Assembly (NCBI GenBank): GCA_039621445.1
Contig: CP154954.1
Span: 26,672,954 to 26,736,953 of the forward strand
From: Euglena gracilis
Taxonomy: Eukaryota
Length of the DNA stretch: 64,000 nt
Reading direction: 5' to 3'
In this document: positions 10,705 to 28,989 of the stretch, one piece after another
Layout: the number at the start of each line of letters is the position of its first letter
How positions within the stretch are numbered: position 1 is the stretch's first letter
Program-made: the position numbers and the translations under genes
Notes under the pieces: generated by a model
Database searches by the model: none
Seen by the model: only the letters and a program-made list of their open reading frames with translations
What the model was told of the DNA's origin: nothing

Positions 10705-13401
10705 CCCCCCCCATCCTTTTGGGAGGGGGGGAGAATCCAGATGCAGGCGGACTCAGCTGTTCTGTTGTGCTCAATTCTGGCAGTCCCTCCCCCTGAGGGC
10801 CTAAACCCCCTCCAAATTTATTTGGCAGAGAAACCTGGTTTTGACCTTCCCCCTTCACGCGACACCTCGGGCTCCCCACTTTGCCCTTGCGAAGCCATGC
10901 CTTGCTCGCCGGCGGTGCTGTTTGGATTGTTTGCTGCGTTGGGCTAGGGGTCCCTGCTTAGTGCCTTTTTCGCCGGAGTTGGCTTACTCCTAATTTTCCC
11001 TTCGGCACCCAGAAGAAAGGAACATCAAATACCACATCAATTGAGAAAAGAAGAAGACAATCCAGCAGTTCAAATTATCCAGAAAGTCACGCTCGTGCAG
11101 AACCTCAAATCAAAAGTTGTTGAATTTTTCGACAGAGTTCAATGGCAGATGCCACTTCAAAGATGCACAGCGCTTCAGGAGGGAGAAGCAGCAGAAGCTG
11201 GACAACCTGACGACGCGGGTCGACTGTGGCGAACCGTGGCTGTCCCTTCCCCAAAAGAAACTTCCCCCACAGAGATTTCCAGCACCCAAACCCCCCAAAA
11301 GTGATGGCCACGGACCCGGGCAGACAGTGGTCAGAAGACCCCGAAAGGGGCAGAAGCAACATCCACCAGCAGGCAACTACGGCCATTGGCGCCAGGACCA
11401 TGGGGGCAAACATTACACAACACACAATGCATCCAAGCGGGGCTATGGCAGCCAAAACCGCACAGGCCATGAAGGCAACAAAGGCCATGAAGGCACAACC
11501 GGCCATGAAGGCATCTACATCATCATAAGTCGCTGGAACAAAGGCCAAGGGGGCCACCAGAATAAGGCCCCACAGGACATGGCAGGGGCAAAAAAGGTCA
11601 AACACCCCCCCACCCTTTCTCATTCACATCACCCCTCAGGGGTGATGTGAATGAGAAAGGGTGGGGCCCCAAGAACCCCTCAAGATTTCAAATGGGCTTG
11701 GCAGCCCCAAACCACTTCAGGAGCAAAGGAGTGGCCACCAGAGGCCCCCCAAGTTTTTTAACGGGCATAGCCAAGATTGTTATCAACAAGACCAACCGTT
11801 TCAAGGCCATTGGGCCCATCAATTATCAGAAGGGGGGCAACCCCAGAAGCTAAAAGATTGTCCCCCAACAGGGGAATTGTATATACTACTCTAGTGGCAG
11901 GCCCAGGAGGATGCAGCCCAAGGGGCAGTGGAGGACAAGGGGGCAGCCCCCCTTCAAGTTTCTTCTTCAATGCCCATGGAAGGGGCAAGTTAAAACAAGG
12001 GGGATATCCAACAAGGGGCCCCTATGGTATGTCGAATGGCAACACCAACGACAAAGTCGAGGATCAGAGAGCCTGTGAGAAGAGCATGCAACCCCCCCAG
12101 CAACCCCTGCAGAATGCCCAATCCCAAGGGGCACCATGGGTGCAGTGTCCAACACCCCCCACCAAACCCCCAGAAAATCACGTGATTGGGAAAATAAATT
12201 CCATGGAGGAAAAATGGGGAGATACCACCCTACACCAGAAGCTTCAGAAAAGTCTAAAAAGGTGGTCAAAAAATGCCCCCCCAGCAACATGTCAATTGAT
12301 AAAAAATGGAATTCAACCCCCCTGGGTGAATCCCCCAAAATTGTCCACCCACCCTGGAGCCAACCTGGACCTGAACCAAGCAGAAAAAATTTTGCTGGAT
12401 TACAAAAAAATGGGTCAGTGAAACGAGTTTAGGATTCAGAAATCCAGCATTTGATCTCATGGTTTTTAATTTCAAAACCAGAGGGAGGAACAACCAAGTG
12501 GAGAATGATCAGCGACTGCAGAGAAATAAATCAGCAGTTTCAAGTAAAACCTTTCAAGCTGGACCATATCCAGCACATTTTTCCAGTTTTGAAAAAAGGT
12601 GACGACCTTTTGAGTTCGACCGCCGGGCGGCGGAGTTTTTCCTTTTAGAAGGCCTTTTCAAAGGCGGTTTAGCTCTAATCATAACGCTTTCTAAAGATTT
12701 CCTTAAAATTCCCTCTCCTAGGGCGCCCATGGTTTGGTTGTGCAAGGAGAGAGAATGAGTGATGCTAGGTATTCCCAAAGGGTTATTTTGGGTCTATTTA
12801 GCACGTTTTAGGCTTTTTATGCATTTTTCCTTTGGCTTTAAGGGAAAATGTTGGATTGGGTGAGAGCGCTTGCAAGTGCTTGGAACAGATTTTCCTGAGA
12901 TTGGCGCCTGAGTTCCTGGAGTTTTTGGGGGGGTTTGCAAGACTCAAAAATGATGGAACTCAGCATAATTTATCAAAATCAAGGGGGGGAACCTTGATTT
13001 TGACCTGGGTTGGTTGATTTTGATGCAACGGGCAAGAATTTGGGATTTGAGAGCGCTTAGGAATCAGCGCACTCAATCCTAAATTTAATTGCCCATCAAG
13101 GGCATCAAAATCATATTTTCTCTCACAGGGGTTCCATTTATTTTCCTTTTGGCCATTGTCAATTGTTGCAATTACAAACAATTATTATTGTGAATTCAAG
13201 CATTGGAATTGCAATTGCAAATGGAAAGTCCAATTGAGAACAATCAATCAAGCCAACAAGAGGGTGAGGTTTGTTCCCCCAATCCCCCTCCATGTGTGGG
13301 AAAAGGGGCAGGGGGCTGGGGCTCCCAAACTCAGGCAACCACAGGCCAAATTTCACCCCAAAACCCCCTTTTTGGCCCAGAAACTGTGAGAAATGACACC
13401 C

Positions 13402-15112
13402 AGGGGGGGGGGCCACTCTGGCCCCCACTTTGTCTTTGCCATTGGCAGATTTGACATTTACAGGTTCTTCTGTAGCAATTCTTGTACTCCCCTGCCAGCA
13501 TAAATCCTTCCCTTTCAGCAACCTTCAGCGCCCAGGGGCCACAGACATTTGTAGGATCTTTCCCCAGGTACTTAACACACTGCCTCAAATTTTCCTTTTC
13601 AATCTGCTCCTCCTTGCGCCTTGATTCCTCAATCAGCCAATTCATTGCACCTAAACTTCCCAAAACCACAGCAAGAAACAAACCAGAAGTCAAAGCCCCA
13701 AAGGGTTCATACTGCTTGCCACCTGCACAAAGTTACAGACGACAGATTGTGGAATGTACAAATTAGGAATCTCTGGCCTGGCTCTGCTTAATTCTGCTGC
13801 CATCTGGGAGCGAATCCCACACTCCCCTCCTCAAAAAGCTTCCCAAGCTATATCAGCCCTTGGCATCTGGGAGTCGCTCACAGATGGGTTTCACCTGTTC
13901 CACCTGACTTTTCACCGCCCTCGAGCCACACAAGTCTTTTTTCGAGCAATTTCCGACCCCACCATGCCACACCCGTGCATGCCGTGGCCAATTGCCTGCG
14001 GTTTGTGCACAGGGGGCAATTGGTTCCCTGGAGCAATGGCTACCTGAGCAATCGTCGAAGGCGTGCCACCAGGGCCTGCCACACAGGGGGGGGCTTTGAG
14101 GCAAAAGTTACCTGGGCAATCATCCCGGAAGATGTGCCACCAGGACTTGCCACACAAGCCGGCATGCCACTGAAAATTCGACCCGGAGCTTTCGACAGGG
14201 GGCGAAAAGAACAAGGCAATCAGGTTAACACCCGGTCCGCTCAGTCCTCGAGCCGCTTGGCAGACTTAAGCTTCAGCCTTCTCCTTCTCCGCTTCCAACT
14301 GGTCGTCTCATTCTCCACTCTCGCCTTGGATTCGTCTGCACTTGGCTCAGCCACACCCTTCTTCGGGACTTCCCAGCTGAACGGTTCTTCCTCGTCGGTG
14401 GACTCGCATGTGACCTTTGACAGCTCCTTCTGGCTTGCTTCTTGCACTGCATCACCAGCATGTACACCTGTGGTATGCACAGCCTCAGCATCTTCTTCAT
14501 CACCCCTTCTGGCATGCAATTGGTCCCCATGACACATCTGTACATCACCACATCCACCTTCATCAACTTCAATGTCACCATTTCAAGGGCTGTAATGCCC
14601 GATGCTGGCATCACACACCTCAGCATTCCTTGACTTGTCATCTTCAGCATGTAGCACTTGAACATCCTTGCAAGGCTCATGAACCCTTTGTGTAGGGGGG
14701 GCCCCACTCTGGCCCCCACTTTGTCTTTGCCATTGGCAGATTTGACATTTACAGGTTTTTCTGTAGCAGTTCTTGTACTCCCCTGCCAGCAAAAATCCTT
14801 CCCCTTCAGCAACCTTCAGCGCCCAGGGGCCACAGACATTTGTAGGATCTTTCCCCAGGTACTTAACACACTGCCTCAAATTTTCCTTTTCAATCTGCTC
14901 CTGCTTGCGCCTTGATTCCTCAATCAGCCAATTCATTGCACCAAACCTTCCCAAAACCACAGCAAGAAACAAACCAGAAGTCAAAGCCCCAAAGGGTTCA
15001 TACTGCTTGCCACCTGCACAAAGTTACAGATGACAGATTGTGGAATGTACAAATTAGGAATCTCTGGCCTGGCTCTGCTTAATTCTGCTGCCATCTGGGA
15101 GCGAATCCCACA
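13402..15112 (-). mobile_element. Non-autonomous LTR element A (~420-bp LTRs) nested in the Gypsy 5' LTR
   Basis: Direct repeats ~13402-13821 (outer end deleted into G-run) and 14691-15112 TG..CA; PPT GAGGAGGGGAG on minus; right TSD AGGG matches the empty site in the 3' LTR (~27651). Confidence 0.88.
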
Positions 15113-15372
15113 AGGGAGGGGTTGAAACCCCAAAGGCACCCCCCTTGGAAATCCCAGTGACACACCCCTCAGGGGTCGGGGAGGGTCCACTGGGAAGTTT
15201 CTCCTTGTAAATGATGGCCCAGTTTCGGCCACAGGGGGGTGCAGAATGGGAAAAAAAATCACAAGTCGGATCGAGGAGCCAAAAAAAGATCCTACGCCGG
15301 AAACTGGCCGGGGCCGGGGTTTCCGCTTCACCCCAGTGCTGCCGTGGGACATGGCAGCACGGGTGTGAATCA

Positions 15373-15382
15373 TGGTAAGCAG
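15373..15382 (+). promoter_or_regulatory. Primer binding site (tRNA-iMet-like TGGTAAGCAG)
   Basis: Immediately follows LTR CA end; same motif at 29804. Confidence 0.7.
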
Positions 15383-16299
15383 TGGTTTTTCTTTCAGCCT
15401 TCAGTTCCAAGTTTTGGGTTGGAAATCCCTGCTCAGAATGTTTTCTTTGATGATCAGCCATTGGCCCAATCTCAGATGGCAAATCTGACGATTGAAGTTT
15501 CGGGGCACAGGGAGTTTGGACCCGAAACCAGTTTGGCTGACCTCAGAACCCCCACAAATATGGGACAGATGTTGGAATTTCAGGGTGGGGATGGCCAGGT
15601 TGTCATTTCTAACCAACAGTGTTTTCCAGAGCCTTTTTCAGGATTTTTGCCTTTGTAAAATATGGGGTACGGTTTTTTGCTGCCTGAGTTGCACCCTCTC
15701 CCAGACTTTTCATTGGCGCAAAATTTGGGGAATCTGCCATCATTACCCGCTTTTGCAATGCCTTTGCCTCCAGCTCAACCAGTTTCTTCAACACCAGCCC
15801 AAGAGCCGGTGGCACTTTTGCAGTTTTCCCAACCATCCCAGGTAGATGGGCTGGCGAAGGAAACGGTAAGTGCCTCGACAGGGCAGGGGGGTGATAACCC
15901 CAGCCCAGTTTTCTTTGAAAAGCCGGCACAGGTCAGTGTGCTGGGCTTAAACAATAATAATAACTGGGACAGCAGCGAACGGGTCAGAGCGGAAGTGGAG
16001 GGGGGCAGAGAAAAACCCGAATGACCAGCCCAGTTCCACTTCTACTCGGCGACCCCGAACACCGGCTTCATCACCAGGCAGTGATGAAGTTCAGCAAAAA
16101 CGGCTGCACCGTGAGGTTGGTCACGGTCAGCCAGCAGCTGCTGCAGCCCCCCAGCCTCCTCATATTTTCATCGAGGGGGGTGAGGAGGAGGTCTAACCCC
16201 CAGCCTATGAAAGTTCTGAAGCCATCCCCAGGGTGGGTTCACAAAATCAGAGATTTGAAGACCCCTGGGGGGCAATTTTTACAAAGTAACAGAGACCTC

Positions 16300-19022
16300 C
16301 AGTGGACTGTGCAGCACCTGACTTTTCGGGTTTGGCTTTGGAAAAAGCTAACAAAGAGTGGGTTCTGCAGCAGCAGCAGCAGCAGCAACAACCCCCCGCA
16401 GTCGACATCCACCTGGTGGAGCACATGACTGCACGAATCGAAGAAACGGCCAGGGCTGACAGACTGCAGATTTTTGAACTTTTTGAAAAAAAATGTGAGG
16501 CCCAGGTGCAAATTTCTGTGAAAAAAATTGACGCACAGGCACTTGAACTTTTCTTCGGGCAGGAGAAATGTTTTGAGGAAAAACTGGTCCACCAGTTTTC
16601 TTCCAGCCGTGATCAGTTTTTGGCCCTGAGGCAGGAATTTTTACGAATTCTGGACAGCCTGCCACAGGAAAATTTGAAACAAGTGCAAAATCAGGTGGCC
16701 GCCTTACCGATTAAGGATCTCGTGCTTGAAAATTTTCAGCGGTTTGCTGAGAATTTTGGAGCCGCCCAGCCAGCTCAGGGGGGGGGGAGAGGCAGAAACT
16801 CTCCAAGAGCTGGCCGTTGTTGCTGCCAAAATCGTTGAAGTTCAGGCTGACCTGGTATCGCTGCGTAGTACGGTACAGGGCCAGGCTCAGCAGCTCCAGC
16901 AGTTCGCTGATTATGTTCGCCAGCTGGGTGAACAAAAATCAGCATGAATACAGCCCTCCATGGTTTTAGTGGGGGTATTCAAAAACTGCACCAGAATATT
17001 TCAGATGAAGTAGGGAAACGACCCTCAGAAATGCAGAAACTGTTGACGGATTGTCAGCAGAATTTTCAGAGTGTTTATCAACAGATTTTTTCCCAGGAGA
17101 AAAAATTTGGTGGGCTGGTGGAGGAATTAAGGCAGGGACTTGAAAAAGTTGGGGGGAACACTTTCGAGTTTGCAGAAAGTGTTGCAGGATTTACAAAAAA
17201 ATGGACCCGTACACCCAACTGCAGAACCGAGAGGGGTTTTGCAAAAAAAATTCTGACATGTGGTGGCTGCGGCAGCGCAGCCAGCAGCCCCTACACCCAG
17301 TGGGGCTGCCACAGCCTGGGCAGCAGCTGGCCCAGCAGCCCGTCGTCCAGCTAGTCCAGCAGCCTGGCCAGCCAGCAGGCCAGCCGCAGCCTGCTCACGG
17401 GCTGCCAATGGGGCTGGGCCAGCCGTCAGCTGGACAGCAGCAGCCCCAGCAGGTGCCCAGTGCTGACCCAGCTTTTTCAGATCAGATTATTTCTCATAAT
17501 AAATCTGCAGTTTCAAACATTTCCCCTCCCTTAGTGATTGAGGGGGGATTTGTTTTGGAGGACACGCAAGGCACGGCAGTGGTTTCTTCTGTGTGTCCCT
17601 CCACATATTTCTGCAGCCCCTGCTTTCTCGATTAGGCCTATCGGGACAGGGGGGGGGCTGCAGCCAACCCAGGTCACGGGTTGGGTTTTCCTTTTATCGG
17701 TGACCCAGTAGCTTTTGAAATTTTGCAGGGAGGTGCTAAGCCTATTTTGATAAATCGGGCAGCATTTCCTGGCAAGATTTTGAAGTAGATTGGAATCTTT
17801 ACTGGGATAGGTTGACATCAGGCAAACCGTACTCTAATTTGCAAAAGCTGCAGGTTTCTGAGGCATGTTTAGGACCCAGATTAGGGGAGGAAATCAGGCT
17901 CTATCGGTTGAATGGAACTAAATTAAGTTACCCAACCATATTGGCCCAGTTCCAGAACCGTTATGCCTCGAATAAGGGGCTTACGGCTCGGAAAATATGG
18001 CACGAGGTAACTATGGTAAACGAAGGCAAAATTACCCGGGCTGATCTGCAAGAATTTTGGATTAAATGTTGCAGTGCCTGGCACCATGTAAAGGTTGCCA
18101 CAGCCGGGGAGGCTCGTAGATTATTTTTGGAAAGAACTCATCCTTTTTTAAGCAAGTTTTGCATAGAAGAGGAGGATAACCGAGCCCGTAAACAACCCAT
18201 TGTCAGGCTCACAGGGATACCAAATCCCACGGTGGATGGGATTCAAAGGAGTGTGAGCCAGATCACTGGGGGGATTGATCCACGGAACGTGGTTATCAAA
18301 AACCCTGGTGCCATTTGCCTTATTTATATCAGTTCCCCGGAGGAGGCACTGAAATTAACAGCCGTAAATGGAAGGAAATTGCAGGGAATGGAAAATTTGC
18401 TCAACGCCGAATTGGTGGAACAACTAATGACCGTTGAGGAAATGTTTGCTTTTGCCGAGGGCAGGTTGGCTCTTCGGGAGAAGCAGGATTTGGCTTTGAA
18501 TCAGCACCATTTTCCCAGATTATTCAGCAAATCGACAACAAAAGGCTCAGGGTAAATACAGGTGTTGGAAAAAGGCCAGACCCCCCCCCCGGTGTCCCCA
18601 ACATCCATGCCAGCACCAGCAGCCGGGGGGCAGGTTCACACCTCAAAATCTGCCCACAGCCAGCTGCGAAGGGCGATAAGGGGCCAGCCCAGCCAGCCCC
18701 GCGTGGCAGGTCCCCTTCTTCGTCTTCGCGGCCAGCAGCAGTTTCATGGTCGTGAACCCAACGTCCAGCACCCCCAGCCCGGCAAGGCAAGGGGGGGCAG
18801 ACCTGGACCCCGCACGCATCAGGTAGGGGCATGTCTCCATATCCATGCTTCAACTGTGGGGAGGGCGGACATTATTTTTTTGAGTGTGACAAACCGCTGA
18901 GTGAGGCCCTTGCTAAATGTAATGATTTTTGGCGAACTAATGGAAAAGGCAAGGGGCAGCCCAACTGTAAAGGGCAGCAAGTCACTCAGCGAAATTGCTC
19001 GGGCAATGGGGGTGCATGGTAA
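16300..19022 (+). pseudogene. gag: Gypsy gag-like region (Q-rich/coiled N-terminus, capsid-like 17812-18555, zinc knuckle)
   Basis: CFNCGEGGHYFFEC (CX2CX4HX4C) at ~18846-18887; multiple frameshifts. Confidence 0.7.
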
Positions 19023-19329
19023 AAGGTGGGTGGGCATACCTCTTCTCCACCTGGGGCCCAATAGGGGGGCCAGGGGCAGTTTGAGAATGGGGGGGGCTGC
19101 CCATGGCCGTGTCTCTCCACCCTGTGAGGGAAACGGTGTAAATATTTCTGCTTCAAAGAAACTGGGGTGTACAGGATTTTATGGCTGATTCAGGGTGTGG
19201 CGAAAAACATTCTTTGGATCAGCCCCCCAGATATTTGAATCGGTCTCGTTACTCCTGGAGGGAAGTAAAATGTTCAAGGGTTCCTGTTTTGTATTCAAAT
19301 CTGCCACAGCCCAACCCCCTACCATCAGC

Positions 19330-19960
19330 TCAGCGACCTCAGGCATTAGATTTATTCGCTGGCACAGGTTCGGTGGTGAGGCGGTTGGCAGAACGGGGGT
19401 ATGAAGTTTTGTCAATCGAAAATGCTCCCTGGACGAACTTCCACCCCCACACAGACATTTTAACCTGGCACTACAGGCGATACCCGGTTGGATTTTTTGA
19501 GGTTATTGCCGCTAGACCCCCCTGTAATATTTATTCCACGGCTAATAACCCCAGACCAAGGGACTTCTCCCAGGCGGATGCCCTGGTGGAGAGAACCATG
19601 GAAAATATAGATTATTTTGAGCCCAAGTTGTGGTGGTTGGAGAACCCCCGCACTGGTCTTTTGCGAAATAGGGAGGTGGTGAAAAACCTGCCCTATATCG
19701 ACATTGATTATTGTCAGTTTTCAGATTTGGGTTATAAAAAGCCACACACGTTTCTGGTGCTGCCCTCCCATTTCACAACTACGGTCGGTGTCGTGTGATG
19801 GCGAATCGTGTCCTAACCTGGTGATGGGGGACAATGGGCAGTTCCGGCACCGTGAATTGTTGGGGGGCAGAAAAAATGAAGTTTTCCCTCCGACAAAAAG
19901 GAAGAATACCCCCCTGGTGATTGATTATCTCCTAAGTTCTGGGTATTTTCTGGGGGGCTA
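19330..19960 (+). pseudogene. C5-cytosine DNA methyltransferase domain inside the Gypsy polyprotein (frameshift ~19745)
   Basis: Motif I ALDLFAGTGS, II VLSIE, III TDIL, IV ARPPC, VI WWLENP, VIII-like DYCQF..GYKKP/TRFW. Confidence 0.9.
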
Positions 19961-20119
19961 GCCCAAAGAGATTTCCCAAAATTCCCAGGATTTTGAGGAA
20001 GGGGAAATTCCAGACCGTTGCTGTCATTTGGCCAACACCTTGAAGGTCAATCAGATGTGGCCCATTGAAAACGAGCTGCAACTTTTGATACTATCTCAAA
20101 CGTATCTCCCTAATTGAGA

Positions 20120-20480
20120 TACCAAGCAGCTCAAAGTTTTGGTGGACACGGGAGCCCAGGTGAACCTGGTCAAAAGGTTCATCGTTCCAAAACATCTGGC
20201 CAGGTCACCACGAATGCCGATTCGGCTGGTGGCTGCCAACGGCCAATGCGTTTTGGGGGACGACCAGTATATTAAATTGGAGTTGGGTTTTCAACGCAGG
20301 GGTACGGGGCAGGGGGGCACCCGGGCCTTGTACCTCGAAGGGGAAGTCTACCTCGCGAATATTGAGGTAGATGCTATACTATCATTTCCAAGGTTAGCCG
20401 AACATGGTTTGGGTGTGTTCCCACACCATAACGCTTTGGTTTATGACAATCCTGATCTGACTTTCTTGTACGGGTGGGAT
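20120..20480 (+). pseudogene. Retropepsin aspartic protease
   Basis: LVDTGAQVNLV catalytic motif, IRLVAANG, DAIL. Confidence 0.9.
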
Positions 20481-20879
20481 ACCAGAAATCAGAAAAGGAA
20501 ATCCCATAAGGGGAAGAAAAAACACAATTCGCAAAAAAGAGTTGGGTTGTGGTTTCTGACTTCGGAGAATCCCCTGAAAACGCACCAACCACGGAGTCCC
20601 TTGAAAATGAAAAGGTGTGGTTGCACCTGCAAAAAATGAATTTGCACCTACCCTTGCAAGGCTTTGATATGCAACCAAAATTTCCTGGCAAGAAGGAATT
20701 GCATACCATAGCCAAGCATCTCACCGAATCGCCAGCCGAGGACAAGGCAGTGAATGCCATAATCCAGGCTCGCGACTCGGATGAGAAGGAGGACCCCAGG
20801 GTGGTAGCATTTCGGAATAAAATTCTTCAGGATTTTGAAGGGGAGGTGTTGGGTATGGAGGTACCCCCTGACCCTCCTG

Positions 20880-22260
20880 TTCGGGGACCTTATGGTTACG
20901 CCCAGATTCCTCTGAAGGAGGGTGCTGTACCCACAACGCAAAAAACCTTTGTGTTACACGATGAAAGATTTGAAGCTCACAACAAGGTCACCCAGGAAAG
21001 GTGGCACCGGAAATTTGTTGAGCGATTGCCCAAGGGAACAAATTCGGAATGGCTGTCCGTAACATTTGTAGTTCCGAAAAAAGGAGGCGAATGGAGGGGA
21101 GTGGTAGACATGCGGGGGCCTAACAGTCAAACTAGGCATGTGTCCTACCCATTTCCCGTAATTGAAGACCTCCTGGTAAAACAAGGTGGAAACATGATGT
21201 TTTCCATCTTGGATTTACGGCAGGCTTTCCACCAACAGCCTTTGGACCCGGAAAGCCGGCCCATCACATGTTGTAGTACCCCCCTCGGTCTTTTTCAGTG
21301 GAGGGTTAATGTGATGGGTCTAACAAACGCAAGCCAGCAGTTTTAGCAAATGATGGAAGATCGCCTCTTCCCCGTGGGAGACGTGGCTGATCCTTACATC
21401 GACGACATTTTGACTGGAACCCGAGTGCGTCCTGGTGAGGATTTACTCGCAGCACATGACATGGATTTGCGAAGAGTCCTTGAAGTTTTACGAAAAGACA
21501 GATTTGTAGCCGACAAAAGAAAATGCCGCACGATCTGGGTGGGGGGGTGAGAAAACCATCCCCTGGAAAGCTTATGGCCATTGAAAAATGGGAGCCACCC
21601 CAAACAATCACGGGTTTACGTGCTTTTCTGGGGTTCACAAATTATTACAGCTCCTATGTGAAGGATTACGCCCACATTGTCGCTTGCCTTCAAGGTAAGC
21701 TCAACGTTTCACGAGTGGACGGCAAGAAGGGTTCCAAGAAAAGGATTTCTTGGGACCATCCGACATTGAGGCATTCCAAAAAATTAAATCACTGTTGTGC
21801 AGTGAATTAATTTTGCAACACGTTAAGCCAGACAAACCATTTGTTTTAAGAGTGGATGCCAGCCAGTATGCGGTTGGTGCCACCCTTGAACAATTAGTCG
21901 GGGAGGATAGGGCTCCTACTCCTGAAGACGCACGGGCCAAGCGTACTGTGCCTGTCGCCTTCATGAGTAGGAAGCTAACGGGCAGCCAAAGAAACTGGGT
22001 ACCTAGGAAACAGGAGACTTATGCCATAATCCTAGCCTTACAAAAGTGGGAATCATGGATTGGGCTGCAGCCCATCCTGGTTCTCACGGACCACAATTCT
22101 AGATGCACCAAGTGGTCCCATTGGGAGAAGGGCTAGGTGGCATCAAATATTATCAAATTTCGATTTGTCGGTTGGGTATATCCCGGGACGGGAAAATACC
22201 ATAGCCGATTTGTTGTCAAGGTGGGCTTACCTGGCCTCCCATGCCTTGAAGGACAATTTC
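20880..22260 (+). pseudogene. pol: Gypsy reverse transcriptase + RNase H (stop and frameshifts)
   Basis: WRGVVDMRGPNSQT, FSILDLRQAFHQ, YIDD, LRAFLGFTNYY, LRVDASQYAVGATL, ETYAI, N.IADLLSR. Confidence 0.95.
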
Positions 22261-22433
22261 AAGGCATGGGTTAGCCCTTGACACCAAGGAAATGAGGGAA
22301 ATCATTCAAACAGAAAAATTGGAAGAGGCAGAATCTATGTGGCTACGGTTAGTGGCCAACCAACCACAGCCAATACATACATTCGTGGAGTCACCACACG
22401 GGGAGGTGCTACCAGGGGGTCCGGGGACACGGG

Positions 22434-24116
22434 TGTTTTCTGAGTGTCTCCTTTTACCCACTGGGGGGTCAAACTTGAAAACGTTTCCTTTCCAGCAGCA
22501 CTCACTTTCCTTCAGCACAGCATAAACCAAGACTTGAAATCGTCATCTGGCGCTCAGGCCTTCCAGGAGTCAAAGAGTTCAGGACAGTTGCAGCTGCAAA
22601 AACAGAAATTTTGTAATTAGGATTCTCGCCTCCTAATTTAATTTTGGGTTTTGAAATTTTAAACCTGGCGCCGCCCACACACCCCTCTCTGGACACTTCG
22701 TGCCCACTGCCTTCGGCAATTTTTTTGCGGCGCCAAAATTGGCCTTTTTTCTTTTGGGGGGGAGGCGGCTGAAATTTGTTGTTTTTTTAATTTTTGAACG
22801 CTGAATCAGGGATATAATACATCCGTTGCAGGGATTTAGTCCAACAATGTCCAGCAGCAAAATAGGGGGGGCACAGGGCCACCAGCCAACCCCAGAGCCC
22901 TTGGGGCACCATGGGAAAGTTTGGTCCCCCTCCCAACCTTCCCCAGGACACTCCTGGGATGAGGGGGCCAGTGGGGGGTTTCCAGGGGGAGTCCCAGGGC
23001 CTGTGGGTAGGCCCCCTTGTGGCGGTCCTCCCACCTGGGCCCTGGGCCTGGGCCTGGCCAGCACAAACTCAAAGCCAATCTTGCAGGGAGGGGGCTCAAA
23101 TTGAACACACAATCATTGCAAAGAAGCTTCACCACTTGAATCACTGAAATTTGGGCTGTCCCCTGTGCCGACCTGGAGCCTAAGGTGCACTTGTTGGCAG
23201 GACCCTCCTTTCATCTTTTGCCTCCTCATTCTCCTTTTTGCTGAACTTGAAATTTGATTAGAAACTTTTGCCATTTTGAAACATTGCCTTATCCTTCTGC
23301 AGACAAATGCCACTTGTACTGGCCATTTTGTGGGGGGGACTGTGAACCCTGCCCCAACCAACTCAAACAACGGTGTGGCACAAGGATACTCCAGCATTCT
23401 GACAACAATGTCTGGAAGATCTTCCCACCAGGGGACAGTCACCCACCTTGGGACAACCAGCACCGCATGACCATGATCCTTCTTCAGCTTGTGGATGACA
23501 TTTGCAATGAGGTTGAAGGGGGGATTTGCCCACAACAATCCAACAATGGAATGTGTCCACTTCACTGTGAAGGAGTCTTCCACAAATTGTGACCCAGGTC
23601 CCCACCAGCATTTGAATCTCTTGCTGTCTTCCAAACTGAATGCATCAATGTTGGGGGTCTTCAAACCCAATCTCTCAAAGATTTCAACAACATACTGAAA
23701 TTTCACTGCATACAGCTCAGATTTCCAGCCAAGTTTTCTGCAGCATTTATCTTCCCAAATTTCTTCATCATTGACAATCCCTGACTTGACACTTTCTGAA
23801 ATGTCCATTTCTTCTGGCCAAACTGGCTGACTTTTGTCCTCCAAGACTTGCGCAACAAATGAACTCTTTGTGTTTTCTGAGTGTCTCCTTTTACCAACTG
23901 GGGGGTCAAACTTGAAACTTTTTCCTTTCCAGCAGCACTCACTTTCCTTCAGCACAGCATAAACCAAGACTTGAAATCGTCATCGTGCGCTCAGGCCTTA
24001 CAGCAGTCAAAGAGTTCTGAACAGTTGCAGCTGCAAAAACAGAAATTTTGTAATTAGGATAGGCGCATCCTAATTCAATTTTGGGTTTTGAAATTTTAAA
24101 CCTGGCACCGCCCACA
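22434..24116 (-). mobile_element. Non-autonomous LTR element B (246-bp LTRs) carrying an N6-adenine MTase
   Basis: LTRs 22434-22679 and 23871-24116, TG..CA, 4-bp TSD CGGG, PPT AGAGAGGGG on minus; sits between Gypsy RH and IN. Confidence 0.92.
23113..23808 (-). CDS. Dam-like N6-adenine DNA methyltransferase (DIRS-MT-like), open ORF
   Basis: PNIDAFS (motif I-like), LLWANPPF (motif IV), AVLVVPRW..PWW; no stops; first ATG ~23808. Confidence 0.8.
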   Translation of the reverse strand: MDISESVKSGIVNDEEIWEDKCCRKLGWKSELYAVKFQYVVEIFERLGLKTPNIDAFSLEDSKRFKCWWGPGSQFVEDSFTVKWTHSIVGLLWANPPFNLIANVIHKLKKDHGHAVLVVPRWVTVPWWEDLPDIVVRMLEYPCATPLFELVGAGFTVPPTKWPVQVAFVCRRIRQCFKMAKVSNQISSSAKRRMRRQKMKGGSCQQVHLRLQVGTGDSPNFSDSSGEASLQ

Positions 24117-24559
24117 CGGGTTGACGGTGCACACAACCGGGGGATAGGAATTCAGAACCACTTGGAGGAACAAAACCCCAGGTTGGGTTCAACCTCCACC
24201 CCCAAGGGAGAAAAATGAAAACATGTTTCATTCTCAACTCGGGTTGACGAGTTTGGGAATGAGACAAGTCTTGTGGACGAGGTCCAAGAGCCAAGGGGGG
24301 AGCATTTTCCATTGACACGCTTTTCTATACCAGCTTCGCCAACAATTCCAACCCCTGAACCTGCTGCCGCGGCTACCACTGAGGTACCTGGGGCAGACCG
24401 AGAATCACCTGTGTTGTCTTCAGGTGGTTTGAGTGGTGAGGGGGGGGGGAGCCACATCTACAGCCGATTCCTCACCCATCTCCCCCGGATCTGTGTGGGA
24501 TTTATCGTGGAAGGAGGAATATTTAAAAAGTTCCCTCCTTGGTCACCAATTTTTCAGGT

Positions 24560-25976
24560 TACCCAGGATTCAAAGGTGCCGTGGCCTGAAAATGTAAAGG
24601 TTTTTGGGGACAAAAGGTTTTTCGAGGAGAGGCTTTGTGTGCCCAAATCTCTCCAAGAAAACCTCATTCGGGATCACCACTCATACCAAGGGCATGTGGG
24701 ATTCCCAAGGTTATGGGAATGCATGTCCCTTAGGTATGATTAGGCTGATCACTCACTCGCTCGAGAATTTGCTAAAGGAGTCATGGGCCTTTCTGGGACT
24801 TGCCAAGCGTGCCGACGGCCGGAGAGTCTTAAGGGTATAGTGGAATCTACACCCATACCCCCAGCCGTAATGTATTCGGTGGCCCTGACATGTTTAGCAT
24901 GCCTCTCGTGGAGTGGGAAGGAAATTCTTACGACTCCAGGCTTGGGTGTGTGGATCGTCTCTCCGGTTGGATAGTGGCGATCCCCCACCTAGCAATAGGA
25001 TTTACCCAAGCCAAGGCAGCCAACCAAATGCTGTTGCATGCTTGGAGACCCTTTGGCGTCCCTTCCATTATTACTTCCGATCTGGGCCCACATTTTGTCG
25101 CCGGTTGGTGGCAGTGTGTGGCAGTTGGTGGCAATGTGTGCCTTGATGGGAATTAGGAAAGCCTACTCCCAGGCCTACGATCACCAGGCGAATGGAAGGG
25201 CGGAGAGGGCTGGCCAACAAATAATGGAACGGCTTGAGAAAATTCAGGTTGAGGACAAGTTGAATTGGGTTGAAGCCCTCCCCCAAGCACTAGACCGTAT
25301 CCAGGATACGCCGGGGGGGAGAGGCCTAAGCCCATTTCAAATCTTGTTCGGTCGACACCGTTCATTGTGTGGTTTACCTTATGAACCGTTAAGGGATTGT
25401 GAAGATGCCTGATCATTTTTTTCTCGGCAAAGATAAATTGATTTGGTAGTGGCTGGCAAAATGAATAATTTGCATGCCAAGCAATGTGCTCGGGCCAACT
25501 GTGGGAGTTGGGAGCCATTGGAGGTGGGGAATCTGGTGTTGTACCTCAGACCCCCCGATGGTGGCACAAAACTGGATTCCCGTTGGTTGGGCCCTTGCAA
25601 GGTTACCGCAAGGGAGGGAATTCATTCCTACCTAATTGAGGTCAAACCGGGCCATATTATGAAGGCCCATCGGAAGGCTTTGAAGGTATATGTGGAGGAC
25701 CCCACATCCGATAAGCCTATCCCCCTATTTTTCCATCGGCGGACGGTACCTGAGGCGGAAGGTGCCCCAGATACCTGGTTAGTGGATAAAATCCTAAACC
25801 ACAAGTTCGTTAATGGAAAAATGTTTTTCTTAACGAAGTGGCAAGGTCTTGAGGAGGCGAATTGGGAACCGGTGGAACATTTTTCCCAGGAGTATTATAG
25901 TGATGTAATAGATTATTGTCTGGCAAAAGGGTTGCCGTTGGATGTCTCTAAGGATTTAACGGCAACGGCAACCTGA
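24560..25976 (+). pseudogene. pol: Gypsy integrase with C-terminal chromodomain
   Basis: HH..GH/CQAC zinc motif, VDRLSG, IITSDLGPHF, QANGRAER, SPFQILFG, WLGP, chromodomain VDKILNHK..FFLTKWQG..NWEP. Confidence 0.92.
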
Positions 25977-27916
25977 AAAAAGGGGGAAAGGAGAGGTGAA
26001 AAAGAGCCTGGAGTGGTTGCCTGGGGAGAGGGAGGTTCCATTCTATGCCCCTTCACAGATGCAGGTGGACCCCATCACAGGGCTGAGGCATTGTGAAAAA
26101 TGACGGGAGTTTCCTCGTCATTGGTTTCATTTTTTTATTTCTCCCCTGAAGTTTTCATTCGCCACCACACCCTGGTTTGGGTGAGGCTGGTGTCGGCAAT
26201 CGAGGACATTTCATTGCCCCTGTTGATTTGTTGCCATTTTTCATTGAACTCCCGTGAAATGATTTCAAAAGAGAATGAAGGATTCTCGTGGCTGGGGGGA
26301 AACCAGCCGAGAATATTATTTTTTATACGGGTGGGTGTTTTCCAATCGAGGGATCCCACCCCGGAACGGGAAGGGATGTTGCTAACAACATCAAAAGCAA
26401 AACGTTGAATGAGTGCATGATTGCCACCCGTTTTGTTTACGTTGTTGTGGGTGGATTCCGGTTTGGAAGTTTCACCAAAAATTCTTAACGAGGACAAACC
26501 AACGGAAGCACAACCGAGGGTTTGTTCTTTTGACAGCCTCCTCCAAGTATGGCTTTGAGATTGCCCTGTCGGTTTGGCTGGGCAAAGCCACATTGCTAAA
26601 TTTCCAAATGGGGGAAGGAACCACCCCCCACAACGGTGTGCATGGTTTGCCACCACACTAAGGGGAGGCAAACCGGCACCCAAGGAAGACGCCGAAGCCC
26701 AACACCCCGAACTTCGACGAGGCGTTTGGCTCTGGCAACCATCACTATCCGTTTCATCCACCTACGCAGGTCGGATTGTCAATTCGAAGTCTGGGACTCT
26801 GAGTTGGTCGAGTTGGAGGTTGATGCAAGATATTTGAAACGGTTGTTTTCTGGTATTGGCGTACGAGGAGCATGTGGAGAGAACGACTGGAGATGGTAAT
26901 TTCATCGGCCTACCCATGCGACTCGCTATCCTGACTGATTCAAAAGGTCGTGACTCCTCCCCTTGCGACGACAGTCGGGGGTTTCACCCCCCCCCCTCCT
27001 TTTCGCTTTCCTTGGGATGGGAATGAAAAAAATATTGAAATAGTGCGTGTTAAGAGAAAAAAATGGATTGGGTGAGAGCGCTTGCAAGCGCTTGGAACAG
27101 ATTTTCCTGAGATTGGCGCCTGAGTTCCTGGAGTTTTTGCAAGGGTTTGCAAGACTCAAAAATGATGGAATTCAGCATAATTTATCAAAATCAAGGGGGG
27201 AAAACTTGATTTTGACCTGGGTTGGTTCATTTTGATGCAATGGGCAAGAATTTGGGGTTTCAGAGCGCTTAGGAATCAGCGCACTCAATCTTAAATTTAA
27301 CTGCCCATCAAGGGCATCAAAATCATATTTTCTCTCACAGGATTTACCTTTATTTTCCTTTTGGCCATTGTCAATTGTTGCAATTACAAACAATTATTAT
27401 TGTGAATTCAAGCTTTGAAATTGCAATTGCAAATGGAAAGTCCAATTGAGAACAATCAATCAAGTCAACAAGAGGGTGAGGTTTGTTCCCCCAATCCCCC
27501 TCCATCTGTGGAAAACGGGGCAGGGGGGTGGGGCTCCCAAACTCAGGCAACCACAGACCAAATTTCACCCCAAAACCCCCTTTTTGGCCTAGAAACGGTG
27601 AGAAATGACACCCAGGGGGGGGGGGGTTGCTCTAACTGGTTCAACTGAGCAGGGAGGGGTTGCAACCCCAAAGGCACCCCCCTTGGAAATACCAGTGACA
27701 CCCCACTCAGGGGTCGGGGAGGGTCCACTGGGAAGTTTATCCTTGGAAATGATGGCCCAGTTTCGGCCACGGGGCGATGCAGAATGGGAATAAAAATTCC
27801 GACACAAGTCGGCTCGAGGAGCCAAAAAACGATCCTACGCCGGAAACTGGCCCGGGGCCGGGGTTTCCGCTTCACTCCAGTGCTGCCGTGGAACATGGCA
27901 GCACGGGTGTGAAACA

Positions 27917-28989
27917 AGGGCCACTGGGCAGCAAAAATAGACCTCAAGGATGCCTATTCTCATTTTCCAGTTCGTCCAGGCCTAAGGCCATTTTTGAGAC
28001 ATCAGGTGGGAGGGGGGCAGACCTGGGAATTTCAAACAGGCTGCTTTAATGCGTCAAATTTTCATGTCAGTCATGAAAGCTTTCGAAAAGCTCTGGAGAA
28101 AAAGGGGCATCCAGGTGTTTATTTACCTGGACGACATTTTGCTGGTGTCCCCCACCCAAAACACTTTGCAAAATTACCTGAAAACAGTTTCAAATATTTG
28201 CTGGTTTCTGGGTTCAAAATCAATGTGAAAAAGTCCACCCTCCAGCCTGCCCAAGTAGTAACCCATCTGGGTTTTCAACTGAGCTTCCAGGAAGGAAAGT
28301 TACAGGTGCCCTATCAGAAAGTCAAAACCATCAAAAAGAAACTGGGAAGAACTGTGAAAAAAGGTTGCCTGTGAAAAAGGCAGTTGGCTGCCATTTTTTG
28401 GTCAAATAAGATGCAATCTAATGGCCCTGCTCTTTTTAAGGGCTTTTACGGACACCCTGGAAAAATTTTTGGTGGCAAAGTCCACAGCCTCCTGGGACTC
28501 AAAACACCCCATTTCTCCGGAAATAAAGGCCCAATTAAGGGAAATAAAAATTCTGGAGGACACCTGGGGGGCAGACCCTTCCCCCAAAATGCAACCAGGA
28601 GTTGCACTCAGACAGCAGCACCCATTCCTGGGGGGAGGGGGGGGCTGGACATCCACACAGGAGAACTAGTGCAGGAATTTTGGTGAAAAGACTCCATTTT
28701 AAAAAAAATGTAAAGGAGCTCACTGCAGCAATCAGCACTGTGAAAGGTTTGAGCAAACCTGCGGACACAGTTTCTTTGTCCATAGACAACCAAGGGATTT
28801 ACTATTACCTGACAAAAGGGAGGGGGGCAGAAAGCACTCCTTCAACACAATGCTAAGAACTCAATGCGGAAAGTACTCTTCAACGCAATGTTAAGACCAT
28901 TTTCAAATGGCGCATAGAGCACCAAGTAAACCTTCAAGTCAACTGGGTGCCTTCAAAAGAGTGACTGGCAGACCGCATAAGCAGACGGG
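27917..28989 (+). pseudogene. DIRS-A RT (C-terminal part) and RNase H, frameshifted
   Basis: HWAAKIDLKDAY, YLDD (tacctggacgac ~28124), HSDSS, KELTAA, SIDNQ motifs across frames. Confidence 0.85.

What the first reader, a model, noticed from the sequence alone, without database searches (positions are those of the whole stretch)
19330..19960. Chromodomain Gypsy retrotransposon encoding a C5-cytosine methyltransferase between gag and protease
Seen: ordered C5-MTase motifs (DLFAGTG, PPC, ENP, YC..GYKKP.TRFW) in the same orientation, between the CCHC knuckle and DTG protease, with no separate repeats or TSD around them. The ENP/YC-type motifs resemble compact viral/bacterial-type MTases rather than DNMT1/3 (inference from motif style). 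Known: DNMT-carrying retrotransposons have been reported in dinoflagellates and charophyte algae. Inference: possibly an independent capture, giving an element that both writes 5mC (for example on its own cDNA) and reads chromatin through its chromodomain.
Basis: partly seen in the sequence, partly recalled or inferred. Interest (0 to 1): 0.85.

Follow-up and report, generated by a model that had tools for sequence, protein, structure and literature searches.

The report
Gypsy retrotransposon carrying a cytosine methyltransferase
This is a decayed copy of a very abundant chromodomain Gypsy-type jumping gene that carries a small, virus-like DNA cytosine methyltransferase between its capsid and protease parts, a kind of element first described in 2018 and extended in a 2026 preprint.

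Summary
Window 19346-19940 (+) encodes a compact (~200 aa) C5-cytosine methyltransferase domain. Motif I, the catalytic Pro-Cys and the ENP glutamate are intact. It lies between a CCHC knuckle and a DTG protease in an LTR element that runs gag-DNMT-PR-RT-RNaseH-IN-chromodomain (12838-27919).

On its own the copy is only a weak Pfam match (PF00145 E 0.013). It has 2221 relatives, 14 of 25 scanned relatives pass Pfam's cut-off, and its model folds as a C5 DNA methyltransferase.

The domain is a family trait. One 2513-aa metagenome ORF has the same domain order, and contigs of four sequencing runs cover the domain.

This copy is dead. It has at least three frame breaks in the methyltransferase and more in pol, a 1687-base nested insert, and LTRs only 92-95% alike.

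The closest structural match is a 218-aa giant-virus enzyme (TM 0.78). In trees, all retroelement-linked copies sit on one side of a branch and all viral-contig copies on the other.

A 2026 preprint already describes chromodomain LTR elements with DNMT plus Dam domains in Euglena and Cymbomonas. This element is a Dam-less variant, probably from a euglenid. Methylating activity is inferred, not shown.

The parts
12838..15375 (+). 5' LTR in two pieces (12838-13411 and 15113-15375), split by a nested insertion of about 1.7 kb (13412-15112) that has 418-base direct repeats (13404-13821 and 14695-15112, 97.6% alike)
   Evidence: Self-BLAST: 12838-13412 matches 27050-27624 at 94.6%, and 15113-15375 matches 27651-27919 at 91.8%. 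Ends were read. No target-site duplication was recognised.
15964..18555 (+). gag-like region, fragmented into several ORFs. No family match; called gag by position only.
   Evidence: ORFs. No Pfam family at E<=0.01 for 17740-18555, and only hits of E 0.035 or weaker for 16290-16838.
18756..19022 (+). ORF holding the nucleocapsid-type CCHC zinc knuckle (CFNCGEGGHYFFEC)
   Evidence: Pfam zf-CCHC E 0.0014, 19.1 bits, cut-off 20.8.
19346..19940 (+). Compact C5-cytosine methyltransferase domain. Motif I is at 19346-19372, Pro-Cys at 19514-19525, ENP at 19640-19648 and the GYKK.TRFW motif at about 19730-19757. Next come a Cys/His-rich short segment and a C-terminal helix. The frame is broken at about 19744, and by inference near 19862-19876 and at 19908.
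   Evidence: The break at 19744 is absent from nearly all laid contigs (table 4).
20118..20440 (+). Aspartic protease (VLVDTGAQVNLV; DTG at 20145-20153)
   Evidence: tblastn to the protease regions of P0040, P0157 and P0120. No Pfam protease family matched.
20732..21792 (+). Reverse transcriptase, in two frames (break near 21529)
   Evidence: Pfam RVT_1 E 7.6e-9. tblastn to P0040 residues 1125-1485.
21756..22435 (+). RNase H and the linker after it, with a frame break near 22100
   Evidence: Pfam RT_RNaseH_2 E 7e-24 and RT_RNaseH E 4.6e-21. tblastn.
22436..24122 (.). Nested 1687-base insertion, not part of the family's own structure. It has terminal direct repeats (22433-22680 and 23870-24117, 93.5% alike). 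It carries a Dam-like (NPPF) ORF on the minus strand (23113-23979; homology 23200-23727).
   Evidence: Repeats. Contigs of all 4 runs join 22435 to 24123 (table 5). The Dam-like ORF matches the Dam regions of P0067 (E 7e-29) and P0051 (E 6e-26). It has no Pfam hit itself.
24522..25412 (+). Integrase (zinc-binding region and core), interrupted by stop codons
   Evidence: Pfam Integrase_H2C2 E 0.0017. One tblastn alignment, 24522-25934, to P0040 residues 1941-2413, E 1.3e-75. ORF pieces.
25779..25883 (+). Chromodomain at the C-terminal end of pol
   Evidence: Pfam Chromo E 1e-4, 22.6 bits, cut-off 25.1. The homologous stretch of P0040 scores 28.2 bits.
27050..27919 (+). 3' LTR

Best explanation
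Window 12838-27919 is an old, inactivated copy of an abundant chromodomain Ty3/Gypsy LTR retrotransposon. The family's polyprotein carries a compact (~200 aa) C5-cytosine DNA methyltransferase domain between the gag nucleocapsid knuckle and the protease.

Shown:
- The domain is homologous to, and folds like, C5 DNA methyltransferases.
- Its catalytic Cys, its Glu and its SAM-binding motif are kept in this copy and are nearly invariant in relatives.
- The domain belongs to the family and is not a one-off insertion.
- Retroelement-linked versions sit on one side of a tree branch, apart from the standalone ~200-250-aa genes on viral contigs.

Inferred:
- In intact copies the domain is made as part of Gag-Pol and is probably released by the protease.
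- It methylates cytosines in DNA, either the element's own new cDNA or DNA at or near the integration site. The chromodomain would steer integration to marked chromatin.
- This would let the element fit into a heavily CpG-methylated host genome.
- The host is probably a euglenid.
For: Homology
- P0001 finds 2221 representatives at E<=1e-3 and 118 at E<=1e-30.
- 19 of 25 scanned relatives match PF00145 at E<=1e-3, and 14 of 25 reach the 22-bit cut-off, up to 35.2 bits.
- A family profile finds DNMT1 in the PDB at E 7.8e-5.

Fold
- The model has pLDDT 87.8 and pTM 0.86.
- All listed PDB matches are C5 DNA methyltransferases: DNMT3A/B, M.HaeIII, M.HhaI, DNMT1 and DIM2.
- The best viral match is the Tetraselmis virus 1 enzyme, TM 0.78.

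Conservation
- C73 is kept in 99% of 105 retro-clade rows and 100% of 176 viral-clade rows.
- E112, C136 and T147 are kept in 100% of both sets.

Family trait
- P0040 (2513 aa) reads DNMT-RVT_1-RNaseH-rve-Chromo in one ORF. L002 and L003 have DNMT then PR, and in L002 RT as well.
- Contigs of 4 runs cover all 30 bins of the element.
- Nearly all contigs lack the extra base at 19744 (X1 depth 17544 of 17836, 7 contigs; X2 6 contigs; X15 and X16 one each).
- At 19377, 19605 and 19728 the contigs carry the residue of the wider family consensus where the window differs.

Clade
- A FastTree of 282 rows has one branch (SH-like 95). On one side are 106 rows: all 24 retroelement-context rows, the window, 79 rows without context, and L001 and L046. 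On the other are 176 rows, including all 79 viral-contig rows.
- IQ-TREE on 90 rows gives the same split (SH-aLRT 97).

Precedent for activity
- Retrotransposon DNMTs of other families methylated CG de novo (PMC5890265, abstract).

Host methylation
- CpG observed/expected is 0.51 against 0.92 for GpC across the window.
Against: - This copy cannot make the protein. Against P0040 the frames run 2,3,2,1,3,1, then the insert, then 3. There are stop codons in the integrase and the LTRs are 92-95% alike.
- The copy has changes at nearly invariant positions: D38E, I100N and W141L.
- The copy alone fails Pfam's cut-off.
- Pfam and PDB sequence matches cover only motifs I-VI (profile positions about 2-136 of 324). 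The C-terminal half is very short, so target recognition, and even the choice of DNA over RNA as substrate, is not established.
- No activity, methylation or expression data were obtained.
- No target-site duplication was found.
- Whether gag and the DNMT share one frame in intact copies was not determined.
- The single-base breaks sit in short repeats or homopolymer runs, so some could be assembly errors rather than decay.
- The trees are unrooted and contain no DNMT1/3/4/5 sequences.
Confidence: 0.85

Rival explanations
1. The domain is a true family trait but does not write 5mC on DNA. It might act on RNA or on an RNA/DNA hybrid, as DNMT2-type enzymes act on tRNA, or it might serve as a non-catalytic binding module.
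For: The target-recognition part is minimal. Sequence matches to Pfam and PDB stop after motif VI. No activity data exist for this clade. DNMT2 and DNA methyltransferases share one fold, so the fold search cannot separate them.
Against: The catalytic Cys, the Glu and the SAM motif are nearly invariant across 105 retro-clade and 176 viral-clade rows, which argues against a dead module. All listed PDB matches are DNA methyltransferases. The nearest relatives are genes of DNA viruses named cytosine DNA methyltransferases by their depositors. Other retrotransposon DNMTs methylate DNA (PMC5890265, abstract).
Confidence: 0.1
2. A one-off event: a methyltransferase gene, for example from an endogenised virus, landed in this single Gypsy copy and is not part of the family.
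For: Relatives are common on viral contigs. The window is full of nested insertions.
Against: There are no flanking repeats. The domain has the same strand and the same order as the single-ORF polyprotein P0040, P0030, P0059, P0120 and loci L002 and L003. Contigs of four runs cover the domain and correct its frame break. The window groups with the retroelement clade and not with the viral clade.
Confidence: 0.02
3. The motifs are a chance resemblance, or belong to a different class of SAM-dependent methyltransferase such as an N6-adenine enzyme.
For: The copy alone is below Pfam's cut-off and also grazes the D12 N6-adenine family at E 0.042.
Against: Thousands of homologues, PF00145 above the cut-off in 14 of 25 relatives, the Pro-Cys and ENP motifs, and a C5-methyltransferase fold.
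Confidence: 0.01

Closest known systems
EpiLTRs of Euglena gracilis and Cymbomonas tetramitiformis (bioRxiv 10.64898/2026.05.21.726589, May 2026; abstract, sections 7-8 and searched passages read; supplements closed)
   Same: Both are chromodomain Ty3/Gypsy-type LTR retrotransposons that encode a cytosine DNA methyltransferase, and the preprint says this acquisition is distinct from the dinoflagellate and streptophyte ones. The window's nearest context-bearing relatives (P0009, P0013) combine this DNMT with a Dam-like domain. The host here is probably a euglenid.
   Different: The defining Dam domain is missing from this element's own coding strand. The only Dam-like ORF is antisense, inside a nested insert that other copies lack. 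Here the DNMT lies between gag and the protease, whereas in Cymbomonas it is at the 3' end of pol. I could not see the domain order drawn for Euglena. The preprint places its DNMTs as sister to DNMT4. I could not test that, and found compact viral enzymes as the nearest relatives.
KnitGypsy-Dnmt3 of Klebsormidium nitens (PMC5890265, section 9 read)
   Same: A Gypsy LTR retrotransposon with a cytosine methyltransferase inside its polyprotein. Key residues are conserved and the domain is under purifying selection.
   Different: That domain is a Dnmt3 inside Pol. Here it is a ~200-aa virus-like domain upstream of the protease. DNMT3A/B are only distant structural matches (13-19% identity, TMq 0.53-0.61).
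SymbioLINE-Dnmt and SymbioDIRS-Dnmt3 of Symbiodinium (PMC5890265, section 6 read)
   Same: Retrotransposon-borne DNMTs in a protist whose genome is heavily CG-methylated.
   Different: Those are LINE and DIRS backbones, not LTR/Gypsy, and they carry other DNMT lineages.
Compact cytosine methyltransferases of giant viruses and small dsDNA viruses of protists, for example the Tetraselmis virus 1 putative cytosine DNA methyltransferase (BFVD A0A2P0VN45)
   Same: Same size (218 aa), same fold (TM 0.78/0.77, 27% identity, E 1.3e-16) and same motifs. tblastn identity to viral-contig genes is up to 46% (L081, E 5e-42).
   Different: The viral genes are standalone ORFs in low-GC contigs beside primase-helicase and N6-adenine methylase genes. 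They fall on the other side of the tree's main branch.

Membership tests
C5-cytosine DNA methyltransferase superfamily (Pfam PF00145) | Motif I (F-x-G-x-G) SAM-binding loop | tested here: met
   LDLFAGTGS at 19346-19372. L14, F17, G19 and S22 are kept in 96-100% of rows in both clades.
C5-cytosine DNA methyltransferase superfamily (Pfam PF00145) | Motif IV Pro-Cys with the catalytic cysteine | tested here: met
   RPPC at 19514-19525. C73 is invariant in A1 and kept in 99% and 100% of rows in the two clades. It aligns to the PPC of DNMT1.
C5-cytosine DNA methyltransferase superfamily (Pfam PF00145) | Motif VI E-N-V with the glutamate | tested here: met
   ENP at 19640-19648. E112 is kept in 100% of rows in both clades. 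It aligns to the LEN of DNMT1.
C5-cytosine DNA methyltransferase superfamily (Pfam PF00145) | Motif VIII arginines and motifs IX-X, with a target-recognition domain between them | tested here: inconclusive
   GYKK.TRFW has K145, T147 and R148 kept in 96-100% of rows. Equating it with motif VIII rests on my recollection of the canonical motif. Pfam and PDB sequence matches end at profile position about 136 of 324. The segment after it is short and rich in Cys and His (C163 and C168 invariant, H181 99% in the retro clade).
C5-cytosine DNA methyltransferase superfamily (Pfam PF00145) | Score at or above Pfam's gathering cut-off (22 bits) | tested here: not met
   The window copy scores 15.3 bits, E 0.013. 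Among relatives, 14 of 25 are at or above 22 bits, 5 of 25 are listed below it and 6 of 25 have no hit.
C5-cytosine DNA methyltransferase superfamily (Pfam PF00145) | C5-methyltransferase fold | tested here: met
   Model pLDDT 87.8. Foldseek against the PDB gives 203 matches at E<=0.001, and all listed ones are C5 DNA methyltransferases. In BFVD the three best named matches are cytosine DNA methyltransferases (ranks 1, 4, 6), and most named rows bear such names.
C5-cytosine DNA methyltransferase superfamily (Pfam PF00145) | Transfers methyl to C5 of cytosine in DNA | not testable with these tools
Chromovirus (Ty3/Gypsy LTR retrotransposon with chromodomain) | Pol order PR-RT-RNaseH-IN | tested here: met
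Chromovirus (Ty3/Gypsy LTR retrotransposon with chromodomain) | Chromodomain C-terminal to the integrase | tested here: met
   Pfam Chromo E 1e-4 at 25779-25883, 22.6 bits, just under the 25.1 cut-off. The homologous P0040 segment scores 28.2 bits.
Chromovirus (Ty3/Gypsy LTR retrotransposon with chromodomain) | Long terminal repeats with a target-site duplication | tested here: inconclusive
   LTRs were found. No duplication was recognisable at the ends. The 3' flank is shared with a second, inverted partial copy.
EpiLTR (preprint 10.64898/2026.05.21.726589) | Dam-type adenine methyltransferase, DNMT and chromodomain encoded together by one LTR element | tested here: not met
   DNMT and chromodomain are present. 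The only Dam-like ORF is antisense (23200-23727) in a 1687-base insert that contigs of all 4 runs skip. There is no Dam match on the element's sense strand.
EpiLTR (preprint 10.64898/2026.05.21.726589) | DNMT belongs to the EpiLTR DNMT clade (reported as sister to DNMT4) | not testable with these tools
   The preprint's sequences and its Supplementary Fig. 2D are not available here. Indirect support: 10 relatives of the window's DNMT carry Dam-like segments in the same protein.
Dnmt3-bearing retrotransposons (KnitGypsy-Dnmt3, SymbioDIRS-Dnmt3) | DNMT domain falls in the Dnmt3 clade | tested here: inconclusive
   No tree with Dnmt3 was built. DNMT3A/B are the top PDB fold matches, but at 13-19% identity and TMq 0.53-0.61, well below the viral compact enzyme (TM 0.78). 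The family profile finds DNMT1 in the PDB by sequence, not DNMT3.

The most novel reading that the evidence does not exclude
A single minimal DNMT module is shared between dsDNA viruses of protists and a radiation of protist chromoviruses. It is about 200 aa, and an invariant Cys/Cys/Cys(/His) cluster, possibly a zinc site, takes the place of a normal target-recognition domain. It would have crossed between virus and retroelement once. It was then shuffled to at least three positions in the polyprotein: before PR, between PR and RT regions alongside Dam, and between RNase H and IN. It occurs with or without a Dam partner. The Dam-less gag-DNMT-PR lineage seen here would show that the DNMT alone is enough to be kept in a heavily CpG-methylated euglenid genome.
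Probability: 0.4. Interest if true: 0.6.

Novelty: new variant of a known kind. Interest (0 to 1): 0.5.

Why it matters
Retrotransposons that carry their own DNA methyltransferase reverse the usual picture of methylation as a host defence. They may mark their own DNA or shape the host methylome.

This case adds three things to the 2018 and 2026 reports.
- It is a Dam-less chromovirus lineage with the DNMT placed between gag and the protease.
- The DNMT module's nearest relatives are compact enzymes on giant-virus and other viral contigs, which points to traffic between viruses and retroelements.
- The module is widespread in environmental data and sits at several positions in the polyprotein.

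With about 200 residues it is also one of the smallest C5 DNA methyltransferase designs. That makes it worth testing for activity and target specificity.

Tried and rejected
Searches that gave nothing or were closed
- The host genome could not be searched because none is held. There is therefore no census of intact copies and no dN/dS.
- Pfam on the raw ORF pieces gave nothing at E<=0.01. NCBIfam gave nothing meaningful. Rfam found no RNA family in the window.
- The Atlas tool turned P0001 away because it holds an X. The unbroken window ORF was then sent. Its nearest clusters are named cytosine methyltransferase families, mostly viral. This is a lead only.

Expression
- Runs X15 and X16 are labelled RNA only by a guess. 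Their contigs cover the element, which does not show transcription.
Nothing is concluded about expression or habitat.

Depth
- Depth figures are per contig and were not used for copy number.
- The lower figures over 22786-23955 are not interpreted.

Element ends
- No target-site duplication or canonical TG..CA ends were found.

Origin
- A bacterial origin was looked for. Only 2 MAG contigs turned up in 185,579 species' genomes, with a single peptide pattern, so weak relatives could have been missed.

Limits of the trees
- The direction of transfer between virus and retroelement cannot be told, because the trees are unrooted (midpoint only) and lack reference DNMT1/3/4/5/6 sequences. These could not be brought in without typing sequence from memory.
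- The lists behind the trees are truncated: 150 of 2221 representatives, 80 of 575 confirmed metagenome stretches and 80 of 432 confirmed viral stretches.
- 35 of 317 hmmsearch hits were dropped for covering fewer than 150 profile positions or for being second hits of one record.

Failed script
- One search was a script error, repeated correctly.
Full report
**1. What is at the coordinates**

- LDLFAGTGS lies at 19346-19372.
- RPPC lies at 19514-19525.
- ENP lies at 19640-19648.
- DYCQFSDLGYKK..TRFW runs from about 19700 to 19757.

Upstream is an ORF with a CX2CX4HX4C knuckle (18756-19022; Pfam zf-CCHC E 0.0014, 19.1 bits, just under the cut-off). Downstream is VLVDTGA, with DTG at 20145-20153.

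The methyltransferase frame is broken. The ORF 19142-19798 runs into a stop, and the protein continues one base over in the ORF 19683-19961. I read it through with an X at that break to obtain P0001, 217 residues.

**2. The surrounding element**

The element spans 12838-27919.
- Pfam finds RVT_1 (E 7.6e-9), RT_RNaseH_2 (E 7e-24), Integrase_H2C2 (E 0.0017) and Chromo (E 1e-4) in order on the same strand.
- Self-BLAST gives LTRs at 12838-13411 plus 15113-15375, and at 27050-27919. They are 94.6% and 91.8% alike.
- The 5' LTR is split by a 1.7-kb insertion that has 418-base direct repeats.
- Against the single-ORF relative P0040, the window's frames run 2,3,2,1,3,1, then an insertion, then 3. The integrase also contains stops.
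- No target-site duplication was recognisable.

This is an old, dead copy.

**3. Is it a C5-methyltransferase?**

Alone, the copy is a weak match. Nothing is found at E<=0.01 for the ORF pieces. P0001 gives PF00145 at E 0.013 and 15.3 bits against a cut-off of 22, over profile positions 4-136 of 324. DNMT1 in the PDB comes up at E 0.02.

The family makes the case.
- P0001 finds 2221 representative proteins at E<=1e-3, 996 at E<=1e-10 and 118 at E<=1e-30.
- Of 25 relatives scanned, 19 match PF00145 at E<=1e-3 and 14 reach the cut-off, up to 35.2 bits. Six have no hit.
- A profile of 23 sequences (A1) finds DNMT1 at E 7.8e-5, aligned over motifs I, IV and VI.
- An AlphaFold model built on that alignment has pLDDT 87.8 and pTM 0.86.
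- Foldseek against the PDB returns 203 matches at E<=0.001. Every listed one is a C5 DNA methyltransferase: DNMT3A/B at TMq 0.53-0.61, then M.HaeIII, M.HhaI, DNMT1 and DIM2.

Key residues are conserved across 105 retro-clade rows and 176 viral-clade rows.
- The catalytic Cys73 is kept in 99% and 100%.
- Glu112, Cys136 and Thr147 are kept in 100% of both.
- Cys163 and Cys168 are kept in 99% and 100%.
- Arg148 is kept in 96% and 97%.

The window copy keeps all of these. It differs at other near-invariant positions: D38E, I100N and W141L. The segment after the GYKK.TRFW motif is short and rich in Cys and His. I infer, without a test, that a small metal-binding segment stands in for the usual large target-recognition domain.

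**4. A family trait, not a one-off**

Only one locus in the window encodes the domain, and no repeats flank it. Elsewhere the same arrangement occurs intact.
- P0040 (2513 aa) has DNMT at 627-822, then RVT_1, RNase H, rve and Chromo in one ORF.
- P0030, P0059 and P0120 have DNMT upstream of RT.
- Metagenome loci L002 and L003 have DNMT then PR, and L002 has RT as well.

Sequencing runs of a coded 'organism A' hold parts of the stretch in 15 studies. I laid four runs on 15376-27049.
- About 8,100 contigs per DNA run lay on it at 85% likeness or more.
- All 30 bins, including the two over the methyltransferase, had cover in all four runs.
- Nearly all contigs lack the extra base at 19744 (X1 depth 17544 of 17836, 7 contigs; X2 18590 of 18833, 6 contigs; X15 and X16 one contig each). 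That frame break therefore belongs to this copy, or to few copies.
- Most contigs have one more C at 19908.
- From the frames and the alignment I infer a third single-base difference near 19862-19876.
- At 19377, 19605 and 19728 the contigs carry G, I and W where the window has V24, N100 and L141. These are the residues of the wider family consensus.

The breaks sit in short repeats or homopolymer runs, so assembly error cannot be excluded for some of them.

**5. The Dam-like ORF is a passenger**

Between RNase H and the integrase lies a 1687-base insertion (22436-24122) with 248-base terminal direct repeats. Contigs of all four runs join 22435 directly to 24123 (table 5), so other copies lack the insertion.

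Its minus strand carries an unbroken 288-codon ORF with an NPPF motif. This ORF matches the Dam-like regions of P0067 (E 7e-29) and P0051 (E 6e-26). P0051 and P0049 match Pfam Dam. No Dam-like match lies on the element's sense strand.

**6. Relatives and origin**

Ten relatives of the window's DNMT carry a Dam-like segment in the same protein. The module sits at different places in the polyprotein.
- Dam-PR-DNMT in P0049 and P0087.
- Dam-DNMT-PR in P0051.
- DNMT-PR-Dam in P0009.
- PR-DNMT-Dam in P0067.
- PR-RT-RH-DNMT-IN-chromo in P0157 and L004 (for L004).

The same pattern searches found many standalone genes.
- 575 of 600 candidate stretches in metagenomes encode relatives.
- 432 of 583 candidate stretches in viral contigs do, including giant-virus bins, at up to 46% identity (L081, E 5e-42).
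- Only 3 of the 159 kept loci have PR, RT or IN beside the gene.
- In 13 loci examined, the gene is an ORF of about 195-290 aa in contigs of 27-49% GC.
- 25 neighbour ORFs from 12 of these loci were scanned. They include primase-helicases (DUF5906, PriCT_2, AEP_C962R), a D12 adenine methylase and a TET-associated glycosyltransferase. 17 of the 25 had no family.
- The prokaryote collection gave 2 MAG contigs only.
- The best structural match among viral proteins is the 218-aa putative cytosine methyltransferase of Tetraselmis virus 1 (TM 0.78/0.77, 27% identity, E 1.3e-16).

Two trees give the same split.
- In a FastTree of 282 domain sequences, one branch (SH-like 95) separates two sets. The first has 106 rows: all 24 rows with retroelement context, the window, 79 rows without context, and L001 and L046. 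The second has 176 rows and holds all 79 viral-contig rows. The midpoint root falls on this branch.
- IQ-TREE on a 90-row subsample gives a 42-row set with all 24 retroelement rows and the window, and none of 25 viral-contig rows (SH-aLRT 97).

The trees are unrooted, built from truncated hit lists, and contain no reference DNMT families. They show one retroelement group and one viral group. They do not show the direction of transfer.

**7. Host**

No name is given for the host. CpG observed/expected is 0.51 across the window against 0.92 for GpC, as expected of a CpG-methylated genome.

Both terminal repeats of the nested insert begin with a 13-mer. It has 2 matches in the window against 0.09 expected, and the two are copies of one repeat. 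I recalled this 13-mer as the core of the euglenid spliced leader. Five of the 7 papers that print it are on Euglena or Eutreptiella, and one abstract prints the leader in full (search listing only).

I take the host to be a euglenid with about 0.65 probability.

**8. Comparison with what is in print**

- de Mendoza et al. 2018 (PMC5890265; abstract and sections 6 and 9 read) described SymbioLINE-Dnmt, SymbioDIRS-Dnmt3 and KnitGypsy-Dnmt3. They showed de novo CG methylation by retrotransposon DNMTs.
- A 2025 paper (PMC12344493; passages only) notes DNMT3s inside retrotransposons.
- A May 2026 preprint (10.64898/2026.05.21.726589; abstract, sections 7-8 and passages read; supplements closed) defines 'EpiLTRs'. 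These are chromovirus-like elements of Cymbomonas, with the DNMT at the 3' end of pol, and a subset of Euglena LTR elements with a chromodomain, Dam and DNMT. It reports their DNMTs as one clade sister to DNMT4 and distinct from the earlier cases.
- My searches found no other report of a Gypsy element with this type of DNMT.

The present element fits that picture but lacks Dam in cis, and its DNMT lies between gag and the protease. The preprint screened for Dam-containing proteins, so Dam-less relatives may lie outside its set. I could not see its supplementary DNMT tree or its figures.

**9. Verdict**

The element is a Dam-less architectural variant of a kind already in the literature, and this copy is dead.

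How it works is inferred. Intact copies would make the DNMT within Gag-Pol. It would methylate the element's cDNA or nearby DNA, and the chromodomain would guide integration. Nothing here tests activity, substrate or expression.

Noticed in passing
window 22436-24122: A nested 1687-base element has 248-base terminal direct repeats, each starting with the 13-mer core of the euglenid spliced leader. Its only intact ORF, a Dam-like NPPF protein, lies on the opposite strand. Why a leader-like sequence starts each repeat is unexplained. It might reflect reverse transcription of a trans-spliced RNA.
   Followed up: partly
window 13404-15112: A second nested insertion of about 1.7 kb sits inside the 5' LTR, bounded by 418-base direct repeats (97.6% alike). 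Its ORF 13792-14532 has no Pfam match at E<=1.
   Followed up: partly
window 25719-29069 and 40516-43811: An inverted duplicate (95% over 3357 bases) covers the element's 3' end, its LTR and 1150 bases of flank. This suggests a segmental duplication rather than an independent insertion. The LTR of this second copy is 96% like the 5' LTR.
   Followed up: partly
window 27913-28374, 41172-41630, 51802-52765, 56561-58052 (-): Several other retroelement fragments are present: reverse transcriptase with the KIDLKDAY motif, which looks DIRS-like by eye, plus RVT_1 and RNase H on the minus strand. The window is a nest of repeats, and no host gene was recognised.
   Followed up: partly
whole window: CpG observed/expected is 0.51 (0.34-0.68 per 4 kb) while GpC is 0.92. 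This is consistent with long-term CpG methylation of the region.
   Followed up: partly
window 19744, about 19862-19876, 19908: All three single-base frame breaks in the methyltransferase lie in short repeats or homopolymer runs (CACACAC, a G/A run, a C run). Some may be assembly errors rather than mutations.
   Followed up: no
proteins P0157 and P0073, locus L004: A related chromovirus lineage carries the same DNMT module between RNase H and the integrase instead of before the protease. The module has therefore moved within the polyprotein.
   Followed up: partly
protein P0049: This Dam-PR-DNMT-RT fragment is filed at NCBI as a hypothetical protein of the carnivorous plant Genlisea aurea, on a 2.5-kb contig. 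It is probably contamination from a protist in the plant's traps.
   Followed up: no
loci L081-L159: Many viral contigs with the standalone methyltransferase are 20-27 kb long, of low GC, and carry primase-helicase genes. That size and content would fit virophage-like or polinton-like viruses as well as giant-virus fragments. They were not classified.
   Followed up: no
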